The notes under the pieces: generated by a model
The model's input: the letters and a program-made list of their open reading frames with translations, nothing else
Told to the model about the DNA's origin: nothing
Databases searched by the model: none
Program-made: the position numbers and the translations under genes
Shown: in pieces, positions 673-35,299 of the stretch
Layout: each line of letters starts with the position of its first letter
Position numbering within the stretch: position 1 is the first letter of the stretch
DNA from: Candidatus Campbellbacteria bacterium GW2011_OD1_34_28
Lineage (GTDB): Bacteria; Patescibacteriota; Minisyncoccia; Phycocordibacterales; UBA12079
Length of the DNA: 64,000 nt
Reading direction: 5' to 3'
Assembly (NCBI GenBank): GCA_001029775.1
Contig: CP011215.1
Location: 274,685 to 338,684, forward strand

Positions 673-758
673 AATTTGAATAAATACCATTGCGGAGAGG
701 GAGGGATTTTAATCCAGAACTAAAATTTTAAAGAGTTACAACTGATGATGAATTACAT

Positions 759-4646: not shown

Positions 4647-4909
4647 AAGCAACCCTCAGTTAAGAGGGTTGCCCTTGGATGTATGACCCTTACAGTTTTA
4701 TGACAAAACCATAAGATAATATTATATTAACAAAAAGGAGAAGAAAGGCAAGTGTTTGAGAGTTTTGTCTAAACTTAAATAAAAAAGGCTTTGTTTATTA
4801 TCATAAACAAAGCCTTTTTTCGTCTTATTACTCACTACTCACTACTCATTACTTACCCCTTACACCTCTCTCCTTACCCCTTACACCTTACCCCTTTCTC
4901 CTTATCCAA

Positions 4910-10444: not shown

Positions 10445-10576
10445 TGTTGTTTTTATCAACATTTTTCCTATATTTTTTAATAGAAAACTTGTATAATTTA
10501 AGTAGCTACTCGAAACTTTTTATGGATTATGTATTTACAAATTATAAATAATGTATTATTATAACCATAACAAACA

Positions 10577-11068
10577 ATGACTAATACTACAAAATTAAAT
10601 GAGAAAAAATACAAAAATGCAATTTTGTATTTTATAAAATATTGCAACAACAATTATCTTGGTGATACTAAGTTAAATAAATTGCTTTACTATTTGGACT
10701 TTATAAATTACAGGGACCGAAAAGAATCTGTAACAGGTGATTTTTATATACATAACCATTTTGGACCAACTCCAAGCGAGGCGACTGTCTTTTTGTCTGA
10801 TTTGGTTGAAAATCACGATATAGAAGTAAAGAAGAAAGATTTTAAGGATTCCCACACTACTTCTTTTGTTTTAAAAACAGAACCCGATGAAAGCGTGTTT
10901 TTAGAAGAAGAAAAAATATTGTTGAAAAATATTTGTAAAGAATTTTTAGACTGGTCAACGCCTAAAATAGTTGAACAAACTCACCTAGAAGCTCCTTGGT
11001 TTTATTCTAAACCATTTCAAAAAGTTGATTACAATTACTCGCGTGATATAGAATTTTTTGCTGAATAG
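10577..11068 (+). CDS. Panacea/DUF4065-domain protein (putative PanA-type antitoxin)
   Basis: KLNKLLYYLDF...FGPTPSEA pattern typical of DUF4065 (GepA/SocA-like). Confidence 0.6.
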   Translation: MTNTTKLNEKKYKNAILYFIKYCNNNYLGDTKLNKLLYYLDFINYRDRKESVTGDFYIHNHFGPTPSEATVFLSDLVENHDIEVKKKDFKDSHTTSFVLKTEPDESVFLEEEKILLKNICKEFLDWSTPKIVEQTHLEAPWFYSKPFQKVDYNYSRDIEFFAE

Positions 11069-14128: not shown

Positions 14129-14315
14129 TCGTTATTCCGCTCCACTCCATTCCTCGCAAAGACGACGAGGGCGGGAAATTTGCGAACCTGGCTGCCGGCA
14201 GGCAGGCTCTCCGCAATGTTACTTATTTATTTAAAAAGCTACTTTTCAGTAGCCTTTTAAATTTCAGTATTGCCAGAGGGTGGGATTCGAACGGAACTTT
14301 TTAAAACAAAGCAGT

Positions 14316-22202: not shown

Positions 22203-22759
22203 AAAAGAGAAAAGAATTTTTAATCAAAATGTTGCTTGTTGTGATCATTGCCAATGTGATTGTTTTGGCGAGCATGATATTTTTCTACTCTATGATTAAG
22301 AAAACAAATCAGGATATTTTTGATTTGGAAACAGAATTGCTTGATTGGAGAAAAAAACAAACAGAATCAAGTTTGATAAACGACAATTTAGACGATACGG
22401 CACGAGAAAGATACAAAATAAATGCTTATTTTGTTAAGGGAGACAAGGTCGGAGTGGCAAATTTTATTGAAAATTTGGAAAATATTGGAAAAGTTTCTGA
22501 GGTGACTGTTGATGTGAGTGGCTTGTTCTTGAAAGATTCTGATAAGACAAATACAGAAGAGATAGTCGAGGTGGGTAGTATGGGGTTAAATTTGAAAATA
22601 ATGGGAAAATGGGAAAATGTAATTCATTTTTTGAAATTACTCGAGGTAGCGCCATATAGAATTACTTTTGAAAAAGTTTATCTTGAAAAAAATTCCGCCG
22701 AGAATTCTGTGGATTGGAATGGAGCATTTAATATAAATGTTATGAAGTTGTCTGAATAA
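22199..22759 (+). CDS. pilO: PilO-like bitopic membrane protein
   Basis: Single TM helix plus coiled-coil; operon position. Confidence 0.5.
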   Translation: MKKRKEFLIKMLLVVIIANVIVLASMIFFYSMIKKTNQDIFDLETELLDWRKKQTESSLINDNLDDTARERYKINAYFVKGDKVGVANFIENLENIGKVSEVTVDVSGLFLKDSDKTNTEEIVEVGSMGLNLKIMGKWENVIHFLKLLEVAPYRITFEKVYLEKNSAENSVDWNGAFNINVMKLSE

Positions 22760-22760
22760 T

Positions 22761-23087
22761 ATGAAAATAGATTTAAAAAACATTAATATACCAGATTTTC
22801 TAAGACTGAAGAATTTTAGCTTTAATAGTTTTTATGGTTGGTTTATTTTGACTATTATTTTTTCTTTTTCTGTTTTGGTAATTTTAGGATATTCTTTATT
22901 TTTCTTTTTAAAAATAGATGAGGGAAAAGCTTTTAGTTTTAGAACGGAAGAAACTTTGAAAGATAATTTTGAAAAAATAAACAAAAGTGAATTAATGAAA
23001 ATTATTTCTTCTTTTGATGCTAAAGAAATTGAATTTAATCTTCTACTTGAAGAATGTCCGTCAGAGATTATTGACCCTTCAATATAA
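22761..23087 (+). CDS. Small membrane protein (hypothetical, pilus operon tail)
   Basis: One TM helix; operon context. Confidence 0.3.
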   Translation: MKIDLKNINIPDFLRLKNFSFNSFYGWFILTIIFSFSVLVILGYSLFFFLKIDEGKAFSFRTEETLKDNFEKINKSELMKIISSFDAKEIEFNLLLEECPSEIIDPSI

Positions 23088-23163
23088 TATTGCTATATTA
23101 TGGCAGTCTATAGTTTTTAGAAGAAGTTTTTTGAACATAATAGTTTTTAAGGTTAGAATTGTA

Positions 23164-23172
23164 TGGTATAAT
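23164..23172 (+). promoter_or_regulatory. Extended -10 promoter (TGgTATAAT) upstream of the HNH gene
   Basis: ttgtatggtataat, 7 bp before the ATG. Confidence 0.35.
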
Positions 23173-23178
23173 CCTTGT

Positions 23179-23484
23179 ATGCCATATAAAAATAAAGAAG
23201 ACTTGTATAAGGCTCAAAAAAGACATCGTCTAAAAGTAAGAAAGATGTTGTTGGAATTTTTATCTACAAAAGAATGTGTTGATTGTGGAGAAAAAGATCC
23301 GATTGTCTTAGACTTTGATCATATAAATCAAAAAAATAAATTTAAGACCGTTGCTCAGATGCTGTCAGGGCATTATTCCTGGGAGTCTGTTAGTAAGGAG
23401 ATAAATAAGTGTGAAATAAGATGTGCCAATTGTCATAGGAGAAAAACTTATGTTCAATTGAATTATTTTGGAAAAACTAAATAA
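23179..23484 (+). CDS. Small HNH endonuclease
   Basis: CVDCGEK...LDFDHINQKNK...CANCHRRK (CxxC...DH...N...CxxCH). Confidence 0.65.
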   Translation: MPYKNKEDLYKAQKRHRLKVRKMLLEFLSTKECVDCGEKDPIVLDFDHINQKNKFKTVAQMLSGHYSWESVSKEINKCEIRCANCHRRKTYVQLNYFGKTK

Positions 23485-23489
23485 TAAAT

Positions 23490-23561
23490 GCTCCCATAGT
23501 TTAATGGATAAAACAAGAGACTTCTAATCTCTAGATTTAGGTTCGATTCCTAGTGGGAGCA
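23490..23561 (+). tRNA. tRNA-Arg (anticodon TCT)
   Basis: GCTCCCA acceptor, anticodon loop CTTCTAA, T arm GGTTCGATTCC, 3' TGGGAGC-A. Confidence 0.8.
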
Positions 23562-23632
23562 CAAAACGCCAAGACCAAAGCATCGCTTTGGTCTTGTTGC
23601 GTTTTGTAGCTCCCACTAGGAATCGAAACGAG
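23541..23632. repeat. ~90-bp palindrome formed by the tRNA-Arg 3' end and an inverted copy of it (23606-23630)
   Basis: ttcgattcctagtgggagc...gctcccactaggaatcgaa with an internal hairpin. Confidence 0.6.
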
Positions 23633-23803
23633 CGAAGTATATTTTTTCGTAGCGAAGCGGAGAAAAAATACGAGCGAGCGGGGCAGCGAGTTCTTAATAT
23701 TTTGAAGTCACGAGCTTGTCGAGTGACGAACAAAATATTTAAAACGGGCGTATCTTGACGAGAGTGTGGAGAGCACAATTTAAAAAAGCCCGACAAGCGG
23801 GCT

Positions 23804-24013
23804 TTATGCAAATTTTTTCTTATAGCAGTCATGGCATATGCCGTGACTGATTTCATCAAATTGAGAAGGGCAGTTGCCTTCTCTGTGGCAACGACACATA
23901 CATAGACTTGTGATATGAGCCGTTTTCCCATCACCGTTCTTTACCTCCTCTTTACAGCCGTATTGTTCCTTGCAGTACGAACAAACAGAGGAGAATACTC
24001 TCAGCTTTTTCAT
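23804..24013 (-). CDS. Small Cys-rich (Zn-binding?) protein, 69 aa
   Basis: Nine Cys/His in CxxC/CxC spacing; AAGGGG RBS; terminator at 23770-23800; lies inside the IR-bounded element. Confidence 0.4.
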   Translation of the reverse strand: MKKLRVFSSVCSYCKEQYGCKEEVKNGDGKTAHITSLCMCRCHREGNCPSQFDEISHGICHDCYKKKFA

Positions 24014-24334
24014 AATCGCGCCCCTTCATATTCATAGTAGTTTTTAAAGGTTTTTTATCTTTATATATTATATAATAGATTTATTAAATTGTAAAGGGTT
24101 GGTGTAAAAAACAAAAATTTCAACATTTTCGCGTTGGTTTGCGATGAGGGACTCGGTCGCCAGTTCTAAATAAAATTTTCGTTCTGCGAACTCAATTTTA
24201 TTAAGAACTCGCGACCCCGCTCGCTCGTGTTCGTCGGGCAAAGCCCTCCTCCATACTTCGCTCGGTTCGAGTCCCTCATCTTGCCTCAAAAACAAAAAAA
24301 CGACAATGTATGCACATTGTCGTTTTTTGTTTTG

Positions 24335-24407
24335 TGGGCGATGAGGGACTCGAACCCCCGACCTTCCCGGTGTAAACGGGTTGCTCTACCAACTGAGCTA
24401 ATCGCCC
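24335..24407 (-). tRNA. tRNA-Val (anticodon TAC)
   Basis: Reverse complement GGGCGAT...anticodon loop TTTACAC...GGTTCGAGTCCCTCATCGCCC-A. Confidence 0.8.
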
Positions 24408-24575
24408 AAATAAAACTATATTGGGTATTTATATCTTGATTTTCAAATTTAGTGGCAACCCACTTTCTTCAGCCATCCAAGTTAATCGCTCCTTAATAAC
24501 TTGTATATTATATTATTTATTTATTGTTGTAAATATAAAATAAGAGACCGATCGCACAGATGCGACCGGTCTTGT

Positions 24576-24926
24576 TTATTTGGAAAGGAGTTCGCGAATT
24601 TTACCGACAACCTCTTGCTTGATAACCGAGTGTTCACAACCTGCTTTTATCAGGATTTTGTTGTTGTCCGGATCTCCTGATATTGCAAGTATTTTAGAAG
24701 AAGGAAATTCACCAACAATTTTTTTGACTAGAACCACTGTGTTGTTTACAGAACCGTGTACTTCGCCATCAACGGCTACGAGGTCCAACCCTTCTTTGTG
24801 TTTGTTAAAAAGTTCTTGGCCTTGTTGCAGAGTTTCTGCGGTTAAAACAAAAGCAACATCGGAAAGAAGTTTTCTCCACATTTTGCTTAACACAACATAG
24901 TCCTCAATCACAAGAATCATTTTCAT
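24576..24926 (-). CDS. Stand-alone receiver (REC)-like domain protein
   Basis: ILVIEDYVV...DLVAVDGEV...ILAISGD pattern; AAGGAG RBS. Confidence 0.5.
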   Translation of the reverse strand: MKMILVIEDYVVLSKMWRKLLSDVAFVLTAETLQQGQELFNKHKEGLDLVAVDGEVHGSVNNTVVLVKKIVGEFPSSKILAISGDPDNNKILIKAGCEHSVIKQEVVGKIRELLSK

Positions 24927-25051
24927 AAAATCTCCTTTTATGTATGAAAAATTAATCAAATTTCTTATTTGAAAATAGTATAATAAAACAATTTTGTCAA
25001 ACAAAATAAAAACGGCGAAGCAGAGCCTCGCCGTTTTGTGTGCGATGTTTT

Positions 25052-25492
25052 TTATATTGTCGCACTTTCTTCTTTATTGGGAATGTCGATGACATCGTGA
25101 TTTCTCAGAGCCTCGACGATCTCTTCCACCATGTAGCCTTTGTGAGAAAATATACGAGTGCACCCCGCATTGTACATTTGAGCACCGAAATCTGGGTTTC
25201 CGGAAAAACCGACTAAGGGTTTTTCCCAACCGGATTCGCGTATTTCACGGATGAATCCAAGGGTCGCGGGCTCTCGGGCGTCTTCAATCGTGAAACTGGC
25301 AATACCAGATCCGACGAAAACCGCTTTGAGGGATTCGTGACACGAATCAAAGATATATCTCGCGTTTTCCACATCGGTTTCGCCGATGATTTTGATATCG
25401 TCGGAAAACATTTTAATCTTTGCTTTTGCCAGTTTGAGGATCTCCTCGTTGGCATCAACAACCAGCACGAAATTTTTTTCTTTTTCTTTCAT
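25052..25492 (-). CDS. Stand-alone REC-like (pseudo-receiver) domain protein
   Basis: FVLVVDANEE... fold pattern, but the conserved phospho-acceptor Asp is not evident. Confidence 0.45.
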   Translation of the reverse strand: MKEKEKNFVLVVDANEEILKLAKAKIKMFSDDIKIIGETDVENARYIFDSCHESLKAVFVGSGIASFTIEDAREPATLGFIREIRESGWEKPLVGFSGNPDFGAQMYNAGCTRIFSHKGYMVEEIVEALRNHDVIDIPNKEESATI

Positions 25493-25676
25493 CGTTTTTC
25501 TCCATAAAAAAGATTAGTATGAACAAAGATTTCTGACCGTAGAATACATATTTAAAACAAATTAGTCAAGGTTTGAAAAAATAGCCAAATCAAAAAGATG
25601 CAACACTTTGATTTAGAGATATAATAGAGTTATATTATTCAATTTTTTAAAATTTTTATAAAAAGAAAGAAGTTAA

Positions 25677-34925: not shown

Positions 34926-35185
34926 ACTTAAAAGATAAAAGATGACCACAGCAAGACCGTGGTCATTTTTTGTTTGACTTTATGTTGTGTTTGAGTATTA
35001 TGTACACATAAATGTTCTTGATTAAATCTTGAAAAGAGATGCATTTGTAAGTATTTTCCGGCGTGGAAGACATTGGTTTTCCGGAAAACCAGAGTCAAAA
35101 CTTTCAGATGTTTAGCGAACGAACCGGTGTGAGGACACTGTCGCTGGTCTTTTCTCTCCTCATCTCTTTTCATCCTTGTTGTGTT

Positions 35186-35264
35186 GGGGCGTAGCTCAAT
35201 CTCTCTCTTGGCAGAGCGCCTGTTTGAGAACAGGAAGATGGTCGGTTCGAATCCGTCCGCTCCA
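35186..35264 (+). tRNA. tRNA-like element / probable degenerate tRNA (Ala-type GGGGC acceptor with G3:U70)
   Basis: GGGGCGTAGCTCAA[tctctctctt]GGCAGAGCGCCTGTTTGAGAACAGG...GGTTCGAATCC...CGCTCCA. The D-loop is ~16 nt, the T-stem has a mismatch and the anticodon loop reads GAG. Followed by a terminator at 35275-35300. Confidence 0.3.
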
Positions 35265-35299
35265 ATCAAAAATAAAAGTCCGCCTGTGGCGGACTTTTT

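What the first reader, a model, noticed from the sequence alone, without database searches (positions are those of the whole stretch)
23100..24410. Nested palindromic element between convergent tRNA-Arg and tRNA-Val, with tRNA 3'-end copies, an HNH nuclease and a Cys-rich mini-ORF
tRNA-Arg is immediately followed by an inverted copy of its own last ~22 nt, forming a ~90-bp palindrome. tRNA-Val (opposite strand) is likewise preceded by two copies of its 3' end in opposite orientations (24141-24156 and 24265-24280). Between them a ~560-bp segment is bounded by ~30-bp inverted repeats (23670-23700 and 24198-24228). It carries only a 69-aa Cys/His-rich ORF with its own RBS and terminator. A stand-alone HNH endonuclease with an extended -10 promoter sits just upstream of tRNA-Arg. 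The architecture looks like a small non-autonomous element (MITE-like or integration-module remnant) that used tRNA 3' ends as targets, or a structured regulatory region for tRNA processing.
Basis: seen in the sequence. Interest (0 to 1): 0.55.

Follow-up and report, generated by a model that had tools for sequence, protein, structure and literature searches.

The report
Repeat modules that copy tRNA ends
The "nested palindrome" is really two copies of a ~170-base folded repeat that sits just behind tRNA genes in these tiny (Patescibacteria) bacteria and always carries a backward and a forward copy of its own tRNA's tail - the same design as the poorly understood RtT repeat behind E. coli's tyrosine tRNA genes - while the nuclease gene and the cysteine-rich gene next to it are bystanders.

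Summary
The 560-bp "IR-bounded element" is not one element, though. It is two homologous ~170-nt modules, one behind tRNA-Arg(TCT) and one behind tRNA-Val(TAC), which face each other only because the two tRNA genes converge.

Read in tRNA sense, each module is: bidirectional terminator hairpin; a' (reverse complement of tRNA positions 54-73); a two-hairpin core with conserved GAGCGA-rich junctions; a (copy of tRNA positions 56-73).

The same modules lie behind eight tRNA species in seven other Patescibacteria genomes, always downstream, co-oriented and matched to the local tRNA. They vary in copy number (a sister species has three behind tRNA-Val). They are absent from orthologous tRNA-Arg sites in four relatives. 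They are mosaic, and their hairpins keep pairing through compensatory changes.

E. coli's RtT repeats (Rfam RF00391) have the same architecture and share a 16-nt motif. No profile-level homology was detected.

The HNH gene is a conserved, syntenic core gene. The Cys-rich ORF is a real but unrelated small gene.

Verdict: a new, multi-tRNA variant of the RtT kind. Function and spreading mechanism remain inferred.

The parts
23181..23484 (+). HNH-like 101-aa gene. It is a bystander: a conserved core gene 5 nt upstream of tRNA-Arg.
   Evidence: Weak Pfam HNH match. 1145 homologs, the 120 listed at 70-93% identity. Conserved pilMNO-108aa-HNH-tRNA-Arg synteny in relatives.
23490..23562 (+). tRNA-Arg(TCT). 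Its last 18-20 nt (23542-23561) are the template sequence 'a'.
   Evidence: ARAGORN and Rfam, 71.9 bits.
23563..23608 (.). Bidirectional terminator-like hairpin T(Arg). The stem is 23570-23581 / 23585-23596.
   Evidence: Paired substitutions in both arms keep the stem in the sister species (read from the two sequences); identity there is 85%.
23609..23627 (+). a'(Arg): exact reverse complement of tRNA-Arg positions 54-72.
   Evidence: Inverted repeat I7, 19 nt at 100%.
23628..23745 (+). Arg module core. J1 ACGAGCGAAGTAT (23628-23640); hairpin P3' (23641-23669, loop GTAGCGAAGCG); J2 ACGAGCGAGCGGGG (23670-23683); hairpin P2' (23684-23745).
   Evidence: Alignment with the other modules. 99.3% identical over 137 nt (23609-23745) to the sister species, whose flanking genes are 62-85% identical.
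23757..23778 (+). Decayed direct copy 'a'(Arg), GACGAGAGTGTGGAGAGCACAA. It is intact in the sister species as CGATTCCTAGTGGGAGCACAA.
   Evidence: Sequence comparison with L066/L072. Only 54% identity over 23746-23785.
23785..23805 (-). Terminator-like hairpin of the Cys-rich ORF.
23804..24013 (-). 69-aa Cys/His-rich ORF. It is a real small gene, not part of the repeat.
   Evidence: Homolog P0121 is 67% identical and sits at the same locus in L071-L073. No Pfam match.
24067..24095 (-). Promoter-like site of the Cys-rich ORF: TTTACA-17-TATAAT, 11 of 12 positions.
24136..24155 (-). a(Val): direct copy of the tRNA-Val 3' end, read on the - strand as CGAGTCCCTCATCGCAAACC. 15 nt are exact.
   Evidence: Direct repeat D2 and inverted repeat I14.
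24155..24264 (-). Val module core. Hairpin P2' (24155-24216); J2 (24217-24229; - strand CACGAGCGAGCGG); hairpin P3' (24230-24252); J1 (24253-24264; - strand CGAGCGAAGTAT).
   Evidence: Inverted repeat I3, 23 nt at 91%. Fold of 24130-24290 gives -62.6 kcal/mol, z = -7.0. Covariation.
24265..24285 (-). a'(Val): on the - strand GGCAAGATGAGGGACTCGAAC, the reverse complement of the tRNA-Val 3' end.
   Evidence: Inverted repeats I2 and I14.
24286..24333 (.). Bidirectional terminator-like hairpin T(Val). The stem is 24295-24328.
   Evidence: Inverted repeat I6.
24334..24407 (-). tRNA-Val(TAC).
   Evidence: 68.9 bits.

Best explanation
The region holds two members of a family of tRNA-trailer modules built like the E. 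coli RtT repeat.

Each module lies directly behind a tRNA gene on the tRNA's strand. It consists of a terminator hairpin; a' (the reverse complement of the tRNA's last ~20 nt, T loop to discriminator); a core of two hairpins joined by conserved purine-rich junctions (CGAGCGAAG..., ACGAGCGAGCGG); and a (a copy of tRNA positions 56-73). The segments a' and a pair into a 13-20-bp helix. Its outer part has the sequence of the tRNA's own acceptor stem stacked on its T stem, so it mimics the tRNA 'top half'.

Shown:
- The architecture.
- Strict linkage to tRNA 3' flanks.
- Matching of a' and a to eight different tRNAs.
- Presence/absence and copy-number polymorphism.
- Mosaic exchange of the hairpins.
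- Compensatory evolution of the hairpins.

Inferred:
- Arrays grow and shrink by recombination between the direct a (+terminator) repeats.
- Hairpin cassettes are exchanged between loci at the conserved junctions.
- Read-through transcripts fold into the acceptor-like helix and are trimmed by the tRNA end-maturation enzymes into a stable small RNA, as annotated for E. coli rtT RNA. The repeated GAGCGAAGCG loops and junctions of that RNA would bind some factor.

The window looks like a 'nested palindrome' only because tRNA-Arg and tRNA-Val converge. The HNH gene and the Cys-rich gene are unrelated neighbours.
For: Module homology:
- The two window units align at 75% identity with an almost identical 28-nt core.
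- The same core lies next to tRNA-Gly and tRNA-Pro (L046), tRNA-Ile and tRNA-Gln (L015), tRNA-Val x3 and tRNA-Arg (L072), tRNA-Val (L067), tRNA-Arg, -Val and -His (L074), and tRNA-Val and -Ser (L076). In each case a' and a match that tRNA.

Specificity:
- An 18-module HMM gave 21 hits with E < 1e-5 in 192 kb. All are co-oriented with a tRNA. The first module starts 35-67 nt from the tRNA's 3' end. There are no hits elsewhere.
- No copies of tRNA ends occur upstream.

Structure:
- In P2', 90.5% of cells are paired against 66% in shuffles (0 of 500 shuffles reach the observed value). Ten of 15 pairs change on both sides.
- RNAalifold finds 20 of 34 pairs compensatory.
- The junctions are conserved while the helices vary.
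- B-type modules carry a conserved, covarying hairpin (AGAAA-N5-CTGC-N5-TTTCGT). It splits a' at, or within 2 nt of, the acceptor/T-stem boundary, where the body of a tRNA branches off.

Dynamics:
- The sister species has three Val modules where the window has one.
- Empty tRNA-Arg sites exist.
- L076 has a perfect 60-nt a-terminator repeat flanking its module.
- The Arg module is 99.3% identical between species, whereas the Val module is 64% identical and mosaic.

RtT parallel:
- The E. coli units end in tRNA-Tyr positions 58-76 and contain the inverted copy GGGGAAGGAT.
- Rfam's RtT consensus structure closes with exactly that a'/a stem.
- The annotated rttR RNA ends at the CCA of the first a copy.
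- RtT copy number is 1-10 per E. coli genome.
- The 16-mer TCGAGCGAAGCGAGAA is shared with two modules; the longest match in 200 shuffles was 12 nt.
- GCGAAGC loops lie on the tRNA-sense strand, as they do in ordinary terminators of this genome.
Against: - Each module is preceded by a strong intrinsic-terminator-like hairpin with a U tract, and no convincing promoter precedes any module. Transcription would therefore depend on read-through and is not shown.
- The structured strand cannot be settled. There are 3 G-U against 4 A-C cells in P2', and G-U counts in whole-module folds are similar on both strands.
- P1 is decayed in the window's Arg module, so it is not strictly maintained.
- No profile-level homology to RtT was found: Rfam gives no hit at E <= 10 and nhmmer finds nothing in either direction.
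- How a' comes to match a new tRNA is unexplained.
- Near-identical cores in otherwise unrelated contigs would equally fit a selfish DNA element.
Confidence: 0.5

Rival explanations
1. A selfish palindromic DNA repeat (REPIN-like or MITE-like in behaviour) that lives in tRNA 3' flanks. It would spread as folded single-stranded DNA or by replication template switching at two palindromic centres: the terminator and the TCGA of the T loop. That process would generate a-T-a'-core-a arrays with no RNA function.
For: - Presence/absence and copy-number variation.
- Decayed and truncated copies distal to intact ones.
- Cores 96% and 87% identical between contigs that share nothing else.
- The Arg module is 99.3% identical between species whose genes are 62-85% identical.
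- No promoter, and a terminator upstream of each module.
- Almost only Watson-Crick pairs in the stems.
- The loops carry GCGAAGC, recalled from memory as a very stable DNA mini-hairpin.
Against: - No dispersed copies in 192 kb.
- No associated transposase or RAYT-type gene within +/-10 kb of the window locus, and none seen near the modules in L046 or L015.
- Conserved single-stranded junctions with variable, covarying helices are the usual signature of a functional RNA.
- The conserved hairpin placed at the tRNA branch point in B-type modules is hard to obtain by template switching alone.
- The E. coli counterpart yields an annotated RNA.
Confidence: 0.25
2. Scars of integrative elements (phage, plasmid or island) that integrate by a tyrosine integrase crossing over in the T loop. 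The direct repeats would be attL/attR identity blocks and the core would be what is left of the attP arms.
For: - The direct copies start in the T loop (C56) and run to the discriminator. From memory, this is the classical identity block of T-loop-targeting integrases.
- The oldest-looking copies lie farthest from the tRNA.
- Sites can be empty.
Against: - No integrase or other element gene lies next to any of the 18 modules.
- Three scans of IMG/VR with module patterns found nothing.
- An att scar does not explain the inverted copy a' ~110 nt away from a.
- It also does not explain the compensatory hairpins or the same design in E. coli RtT.
- A single element family cannot carry the 3' ends of eight different tRNAs.
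Confidence: 0.1
3. One reading: one ~560-bp non-autonomous element bounded by the 33-nt inverted repeats, carrying the Cys-rich ORF and mobilised with the help of the HNH nuclease.
For: The 33-nt inverted repeats are real, and the ORF has its own promoter-like and terminator-like signals.
Against: - The inverted repeats are internal to two independent modules.
- Modules occur without the ORF and without a partner.
- The ORF's ortholog is separated from the Arg module by another gene in the sister species.
- The HNH gene is a conserved syntenic gene.
- The pattern has only these two matches in the window, and no other genome carries the composite.
Confidence: 0.03

Closest known systems
RtT RNA / tyrT-operon 178-bp repeats of E. 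coli (Rfam RF00391; gene rttR)
   Same: - Lies directly downstream of a tRNA gene on the same strand, in tandem arrays with a ~178-190-nt period.
- Every unit ends with a copy of the tRNA's 3' end that starts in the T loop.
- An inverted copy pairs with it as the closing stem of the consensus structure.
- GAGCGAAGCG-type motif: the 16-mer TCGAGCGAAGCGAGAA is identical in the RtT consensus and two modules.
- Copy number varies between genomes.
- RtT has covariation support and a tandem G-A motif (bioRxiv 10.1101/2020.02.04.933952).
- RtT RNA comes from one repeat unit of the tyrT operon (PMC3318445). Its mode of action is unknown (bioRxiv 10.1101/2024.07.17.603846).
   Different: - No hit to the RF00391 model at E <= 10, and no nhmmer similarity.
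- The modules serve at least eight tRNA species rather than tRNA-Tyr alone.
- Each module is preceded by an intrinsic-terminator-like hairpin that the E. coli units lack.
- The closing helix is longer (13-20 bp against ~9 bp).
- The copies carry no CCA, except a possible relic in the Val M3 lineage.
- The core has two long AT-rich hairpins.
- The phylum is different (Patescibacteria).
REPINs / BIMEs and other palindromic intergenic repeats (from memory)
   Same: Short, non-coding, hairpin-forming and intergenic. They often sit at gene 3' ends near terminators and show variable presence.
   Different: REP-type repeats have constant sequences, are dispersed in tens to hundreds of copies and depend on a RAYT transposase. 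Here the ends are rewritten for each tRNA, copies are found only behind tRNAs, and no RAYT gene was seen.
tRNA-targeted integrative elements with T-loop crossover (from memory: Williams 2002 classification)
   Same: A direct repeat of the tRNA segment from the T loop to the 3' end flanks the inserted DNA, and arrays build up at the same tRNA.
   Different: The 'insert' is 110-190 nt of structured non-coding DNA with an additional inverted copy. There is no integrase and no viral counterpart.
tRNA-like ends of other RNAs (tmRNA tRNA-like domain, mascRNA/MALAT1, plant-virus tRNA-like structures; from memory)
   Same: The 5' and 3' segments of a longer RNA pair into an acceptor-like helix that the tRNA maturation enzymes can recognise.
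   Different: Those RNAs have a true T arm and a fixed identity. Here the T loop is replaced by the ~110-nt core, and the helix copies whichever tRNA lies upstream. ARAGORN and Rfam call no tmRNA or tRNA in the modules.

Membership tests
RtT RNA (RF00391) | Position: immediately downstream of, and co-oriented with, a tRNA gene, singly or in tandem. | tested here: met
   Window modules start 40-42 nt after tRNA-Arg and tRNA-Val. All 21 HMM hits in 192 kb are downstream of and co-oriented with a tRNA. E. coli control.
RtT RNA (RF00391) | The unit ends with a copy of the tRNA's 3' end that begins in the T loop. | tested here: met
   The a copies begin at C56 in every intact module. E. coli units begin at A58. 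The window's Arg copy is decayed.
RtT RNA (RF00391) | A closing stem formed by an inverted copy of the tRNA 3' end pairing with the direct copy. | tested here: met
   Rfam consensus structure. Window Val module: 13-bp exact stem, fold z = -7.0. Sister-species Arg module: 17-bp stem.
RtT RNA (RF00391) | Score at or above the gathering threshold (45 bits) of the Rfam covariance model. | tested here: not met
   No RtT match at E <= 1 in window 22500-25500 or at E <= 10 in L072, L015, L046 and L067. The E. coli units score 133-137 bits in the same run. nhmmer found nothing in either direction.
RtT RNA (RF00391) | A discrete RNA released by processing of the tRNA operon transcript. | not testable with these tools
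   No expression data were available. Terminator-like hairpins precede each module.
MITE / non-autonomous transposon | Constant terminal inverted repeats, a short target-site duplication and dispersed copies. | tested here: not met
   The terminal helix differs for every tRNA. The flanking repeat is 18-85 nt of tRNA end, with or without the terminator. There are no copies away from tRNAs.
MITE / non-autonomous transposon | A related autonomous element encoding a transposase. | tested here: inconclusive
   No transposase family is listed within +/-10 kb of the window locus, and no evident recombinase lies near the modules in L046 or L015 (by inspection). Whole genomes could not be scanned.
Integrase att scar (tRNA T-loop class) | A direct repeat of the T loop-to-3'-end segment flanking the insert. 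| tested here: met
Integrase att scar (tRNA T-loop class) | An integrase gene or element genes between or beside the repeats, or a matching attP in a phage or plasmid. | tested here: not met
   No integrase lies at any module. Three IMG/VR pattern scans were empty.
Mobile HNH homing endonuclease (for ORF 23181-23484) | Patchy distribution and variable genomic context. | tested here: not met
   1145 homologs, the 120 listed at 70-93% identity. In the relatives L067-L070, L071-L073 and L076-L079 it keeps the pilMNO-108aa-HNH-tRNA-Arg context; in L074 and L075 the pil genes are not adjacent, but tRNA-Arg still follows it directly.

The most novel reading that the evidence does not exclude
Patescibacteria may keep a set of small RNAs, one behind each of many tRNA genes, whose closing helix is rewritten to copy the acceptor/T-arm helix of that particular tRNA. 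These would be tRNA 'top-half' mimics made and trimmed by the tRNA maturation machinery. They could act as isoacceptor-specific decoys or sponges, for example for enzymes, toxins or starvation sensors that read tRNA 3' ends. E. coli RtT would then be the lone, long-unexplained proteobacterial example.

Alternatively, the rewriting could reflect a new target-templated insertion mechanism that copies the end of whichever tRNA gene the element lands behind.
Probability: 0.25. Interest if true: 0.8.

Novelty: new variant of a known kind. Interest (0 to 1): 0.6.

Why it matters
RtT has been known in E. coli for decades, but as far as I could find only as a curiosity of the tyrosine tRNA operon, with an unknown mode of action.

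A family with the same blueprint in a distant, genome-reduced phylum, matched to at least eight different tRNAs, suggests that the blueprint is what matters rather than tRNA-Tyr. That blueprint is an inverted plus a direct copy of the tRNA tail closing a structured core.

The family offers many natural variants with which to test two questions. First, are such modules processed tRNA-end mimics, or selfish repeats? Second, how does a repeat come to carry the sequence of its neighbour?

Practically, these modules create spurious ORFs, palindromes and apparent 'att sites' behind tRNA genes. Annotators of CPR genomes should recognise them.

Tried and rejected
Searches that gave little:
- A word-based protein search and an exact-sequence look-up of the Cys-rich ORF found nothing. 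Only the exhaustive HMMER search found a homolog.
- The genome-contig scan with CTCGCNNCCCCGCTCGCTCGT returned 61 loci, of which 59 were chance or GC-rich hits. Only L015 and L046 were relevant.
- The metagenome scan with a stricter core gave a single locus, the sister species. The exact core is therefore rare, and a profile scan is needed.
- Three viral-contig scans were empty.
- Literature searches for a description in CPR/Patescibacteria found none. Bosl and Kersten 1991 is not held.

Inconclusive attempts:
- Strand assignment. Nine of ten modules fold better on the tRNA strand. However, G-U counts and G-U against A-C counts in P2' do not discriminate.
- My first P2' structure string was mis-registered by two columns. 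It was corrected.

Ideas considered and set aside:
- tRNA-primed reverse transcription (a primer-binding-site-like copy): most copies lack CCA and continue into gene-flank sequence.
- a' as a copy of the tRNA 5' strand (a deleted tRNA duplicate): a' is the exact complement of the 3' strand at G-U positions, namely Ile G5-U68 and Arg U49-G65.
- IS110 bridge-RNA-like guides: a' and a cover the same target segment, not adjacent target flanks.
- Resemblances to the parvovirus ITR, ssoA origins and the CTX-phi attP: recalled from memory and untestable here.
- Homology to RtT by profile: not detected.
Full report
OBSERVATION

ARAGORN and Rfam place tRNA-Arg(TCT) at 23490-23562 (+) and tRNA-Val(TAC) at 24334-24407 (-).
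- The last 19 nt of tRNA-Arg (23542-23560) recur as a perfect inverted copy at 23609-23627, around the hairpin 23570-23596.
- The tRNA-Val 3' end recurs in the same orientation at 24134-24155.
- It recurs inverted at 24264-24297.
- A 33-nt, 91% inverted repeat joins 23667-23699 to 24199-24231.
- One repeat was not reported before: 23619-23640 pairs with 24253-24274 (22 nt, 91%).

The 28-nt core pattern has two matches in the window against 0.00 expected from shuffles. The HNH-like ORF (23181-23484) and the 69-aa Cys-rich ORF (23804-24013, -) exist. The Cys-rich ORF has a near-consensus promoter-like site and a terminator-like hairpin.

RE-READING THE ANATOMY

Aligning the left part on the minus strand with the right part on the plus strand shows two homologous ~170-nt units in inverted orientation (75% identity). 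The "IR-bounded 560-bp segment" is therefore an illusion produced by two convergent tRNA genes, each followed by its own unit.

Read in the sense of its tRNA, each unit has four parts:
- A bidirectional terminator-like hairpin (23570-23596 and 24295-24328).
- a', the reverse complement of tRNA positions ~54-73.
- A core: J1 (CGAGCGAAGTAT), hairpin P3', J2 (ACGAGCGAGCGG) and hairpin P2', whose base is conserved (GAGTTCTTA...TTAGAACTGG).
- a, a copy of tRNA positions 56-73.

The segments a' and a pair. The Val unit folds to -62.6 kcal/mol, with z = -7.0. The Arg unit's a copy is decayed in the window, and its fold gives only z = -2.5.

THE FAMILY

A scan of one genome per species with the core returned mostly chance hits in GC-rich genomes. 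Two were Patescibacteria contigs, L046 and L015. In those contigs the same unit sits behind tRNA-Gly(GCC), tRNA-Pro(TGG), tRNA-Ile(GAT) and tRNA-Gln(CTG). In every case a' and a match that tRNA rather than Arg or Val.

Loci fetched through the conserved HNH protein and through the Cys-ORF homolog added further modules:
- tRNA-Val x3 and tRNA-Arg in L072, the sister species.
- tRNA-Val in L067.
- tRNA-Arg, -Val and -His in L074.
- tRNA-Val and -Ser in L076.

That makes 18 modules behind eight tRNA species.

An HMM built from the 18 modules found 21 hits with E < 1e-5 in 192 kb of Patescibacteria DNA. All lie downstream of a tRNA and are co-oriented with it. The first module starts 35-67 nt from the tRNA's 3' end, and there are no hits elsewhere. 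Most of these hits are the training sequences themselves, so the informative result is the absence of any other copy.

A model-free check gives the same picture. Copies of the last 14 nt of a tRNA (at most 2 mismatches) lie downstream of 14 of 36 tRNAs (direct) and 5 of 36 (inverted). None lies upstream.

a' is the complement of the 3' strand, not a copy of the tRNA's 5' strand. At the Ile G5-U68 pair and the Arg U49-G65 pair it carries the Watson-Crick complement (sequences).

A second subtype, here called B, occurs in L072 M1, L046 Pro and distal Gly, L074 Val, and L076 Val and Ser. It has a conserved, covarying hairpin (AGAAA-N5-CTGC-N5-TTTCGT) that splits a' at, or within 2 nt of, the acceptor/T-stem boundary. 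That is the place where the body of a real tRNA branches off.

STRUCTURE IS SELECTED

For P2', taking the arms from 14 modules:
- 90.5% of cells pair, against 66% in shuffles (0 of 500 shuffles reach the observed value).
- Ten of 15 pairs change on both sides.
- All slid registers give 56% or less.
- A T-T mismatch is conserved in 12 of 14 modules.

The arms were located by maximising complementarity, which favours the structure. The double changes do not depend on that choice.

RNAalifold on seven A-type modules finds 20 of 34 pairs with compensatory changes. The junctions J1 and J2 are nearly invariant while the helices vary.

The structured strand cannot be decided. Nine of ten modules fold better on the tRNA strand, but G-U and A-C counts are balanced. 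The GCGAAGC loop motif lies on the tRNA-sense strand. It occurs 13 times in the window against ~2.3 expected from base composition, and some copies sit in ordinary terminator loops on the sense strand of their gene.

DYNAMICS

In the sister species, flanking genes are 62-85% identical to the window. Its tRNA-Val is followed by three modules of different subtypes, each with its own terminator. The window keeps only the ortholog of the third module. The window's tRNA-Val 3' flank matches the a-terminator that follows module 2 there, which is what a deletion between a copies would leave.

Other signs of turnover:
- tRNA-Arg has a module in the window, L072 and L074, but none in L067, L070, L075 and L076.
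- L076 has a perfect 60-nt a-terminator repeat on both sides of its module.
- L015 has an ~85-nt a'-terminator-a block duplicated.
- Distal units are truncated or decayed.
- Modules are mosaic. The L046 Gly module combines the P2' of the window's Arg unit with the P3' of its Val unit.
- The Arg module is 99.3% identical over 137 nt between the two species, while the orthologous Val module is 64% identical.
- L046 and L015 share no other nucleotide similarity with the window.

THE BYSTANDERS

The HNH-like protein has 1145 homologs; the 120 listed are 70-93% identical across Patescibacteria. In L067-L070, L071-L073 and L076-L079 it lies in the order pilM-pilN-pilO-(108 aa)-HNH-tRNA-Arg. In L074 and L075 the pil genes are not adjacent, but tRNA-Arg still follows it directly. 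It is a conserved core gene, not a mobile nuclease.

The Cys-rich ORF was not called as a gene in two assemblies. It nevertheless has a 67%-identical homolog at the same locus in L071-L073. There it is followed by a further 122-aa ORF before the Arg module. In L074 the convergent Arg and Val modules abut with no ORF between them. Neither gene belongs to the repeat.

COMPARISON WITH WHAT IS KNOWN

From memory I recalled the 178-bp repeats behind E. coli tyrT/tyrV and tested that lead. In MG1655:
- Each unit ends in AATCCTTCCCCCACCACCA, which is tRNA-Tyr from the T loop to the CCA. Each unit also contains the inverted copy GGGGAAGGAT.
- Rfam RF00391 (RtT) hits four units at 133-137 bits. Its consensus structure closes with exactly this a'/a stem.
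- The annotated rttR RNA ends at the CCA of the first a copy.
- E. coli genomes carry 1-10 copies, with a median of 3.

Published statements agree with this picture. RtT RNA derives from one repeat unit of the tyrT operon (PMC3318445). Its mode of action is unknown (bioRxiv 10.1101/2024.07.17.603846). It has covariation support, including a tandem G-A motif (bioRxiv 10.1101/2020.02.04.933952).

The Patescibacteria modules share the position, period, a copy, closing stem and copy-number behaviour. They also share an exact 16-mer, TCGAGCGAAGCGAGAA, with the RtT consensus; the longest match in 200 shuffles was 12 nt. They do not match the RF00391 model at E <= 10, and nhmmer finds nothing in either direction. 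They therefore work like RtT but are not demonstrable members of the family.

MECHANISM

Shown: the architecture, the strict tRNA linkage and matching, the selected hairpins and the polymorphism.

Inferred:
- Arrays expand and contract by recombination between the direct a (+terminator) repeats.
- Hairpin cassettes are exchanged at the conserved junctions.
- Read-through transcripts fold so that a'/a forms an acceptor/T-stem-like helix. This helix lets tRNA end-maturation enzymes define the ends of a stable small RNA.

Weak points:
- A strong terminator-like hairpin precedes every module, and no promoter was found.
- Transcription is not shown.
- How a' becomes matched at a new tRNA is unexplained. 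A possible route is template switching at the terminator palindrome and at the palindromic TCGA of the T loop.

A purely selfish DNA repeat is the main rival.

VERDICT

This is a new, multi-tRNA variant of the RtT kind of tRNA-trailer repeat.

Noticed in passing
window 688-712, 940-1027 (around tRNA-Ser 760-847, - strand): tRNA-Ser has a direct copy of its 3' end 48 nt downstream (688-712), followed by a short fragment resembling the P2 arm. Upstream lies a decayed tRNA-Ser duplicate whose 5' end (1003-1027) is intact. Its body is interrupted by an insert containing GAGCGAAGCGAAG (965-977).
   Followed up: partly
L015 5808-5830; L046 5608-5705; L067 1610-1700; L072 4790-4910; L070 12380-12410; possibly window 24420-24500: Partial 5'-end copies or pseudo-tRNAs lie just upstream of the functional tRNA gene, in the same orientation, in several genomes. 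A pseudo-tRNA-Val with an inserted hairpin appears in both L067 and L072. The window case was seen by eye only.
   Followed up: partly
L074 ~10555-10610 and ~14145-14195; L046 ~830-870; L072 ~4800-4845: A GC-rich mini-palindrome (CCTGCCTGCCC...GGGCAGGCAGG) is nested inside P2' loops, inside an a copy, or beside a pseudo-tRNA. It looks like a second, smaller repeat family that inserts into hairpin loops.
   Followed up: no
window 35176-35267: ARAGORN reports a 92-nt tRNA-like gene with an unassignable four-base anticodon call (cttg). By eye it has an extra CT-rich stretch in the D-loop region.
   Followed up: no
window 23181-23484: The small HNH-like protein is unusually conserved (1145 homologs, those listed 70-93% identical). 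It always lies directly upstream of tRNA-Arg(TCT): 5 nt in the window, and overlapping the tRNA in L069, L075, L076 and L077. It is probably co-transcribed with the tRNA. Its role is unknown; some sources name it McrA-like.
   Followed up: partly
window-wide, e.g. 27979, 28257, 23652, 966: The heptamer GCGAAGC occurs 13 times against ~2.3 expected from base composition. Several copies lie in hairpin or terminator loops, suggesting a preferred stable loop in this genome.
   Followed up: partly
window 23804-24013; P0121; P0122: The Cys-rich 69-aa protein (CxxC...CxC...HGxCxxC) has only one close homolog cluster (67% identity). It also has a weak match to a 303-aa protein made of six repeats. There is no Pfam family. 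It is fast-evolving: 70% nucleotide identity to the sister species.
   Followed up: partly
L072 4955-5030 versus window 24334-24407; L067, L075 and L076 versus window: The sister species' tRNA-Val gene encodes CCA while the window's does not. The orientation of tRNA-Val relative to tRNA-Arg also differs among relatives: convergent in the window, L070, L072 and L074, and tandem in L067, L075 and L076. This implies inversions at this locus.
   Followed up: partly
L072 5338-5529; L071 5478-5693; window 23524-23934, 24068-24295, 24227-24439: Gene callers and ORF lists produce spurious 60-136-aa ORFs across the modules. These are a likely source of false 'hypothetical proteins' in CPR annotations.
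   Followed up: no
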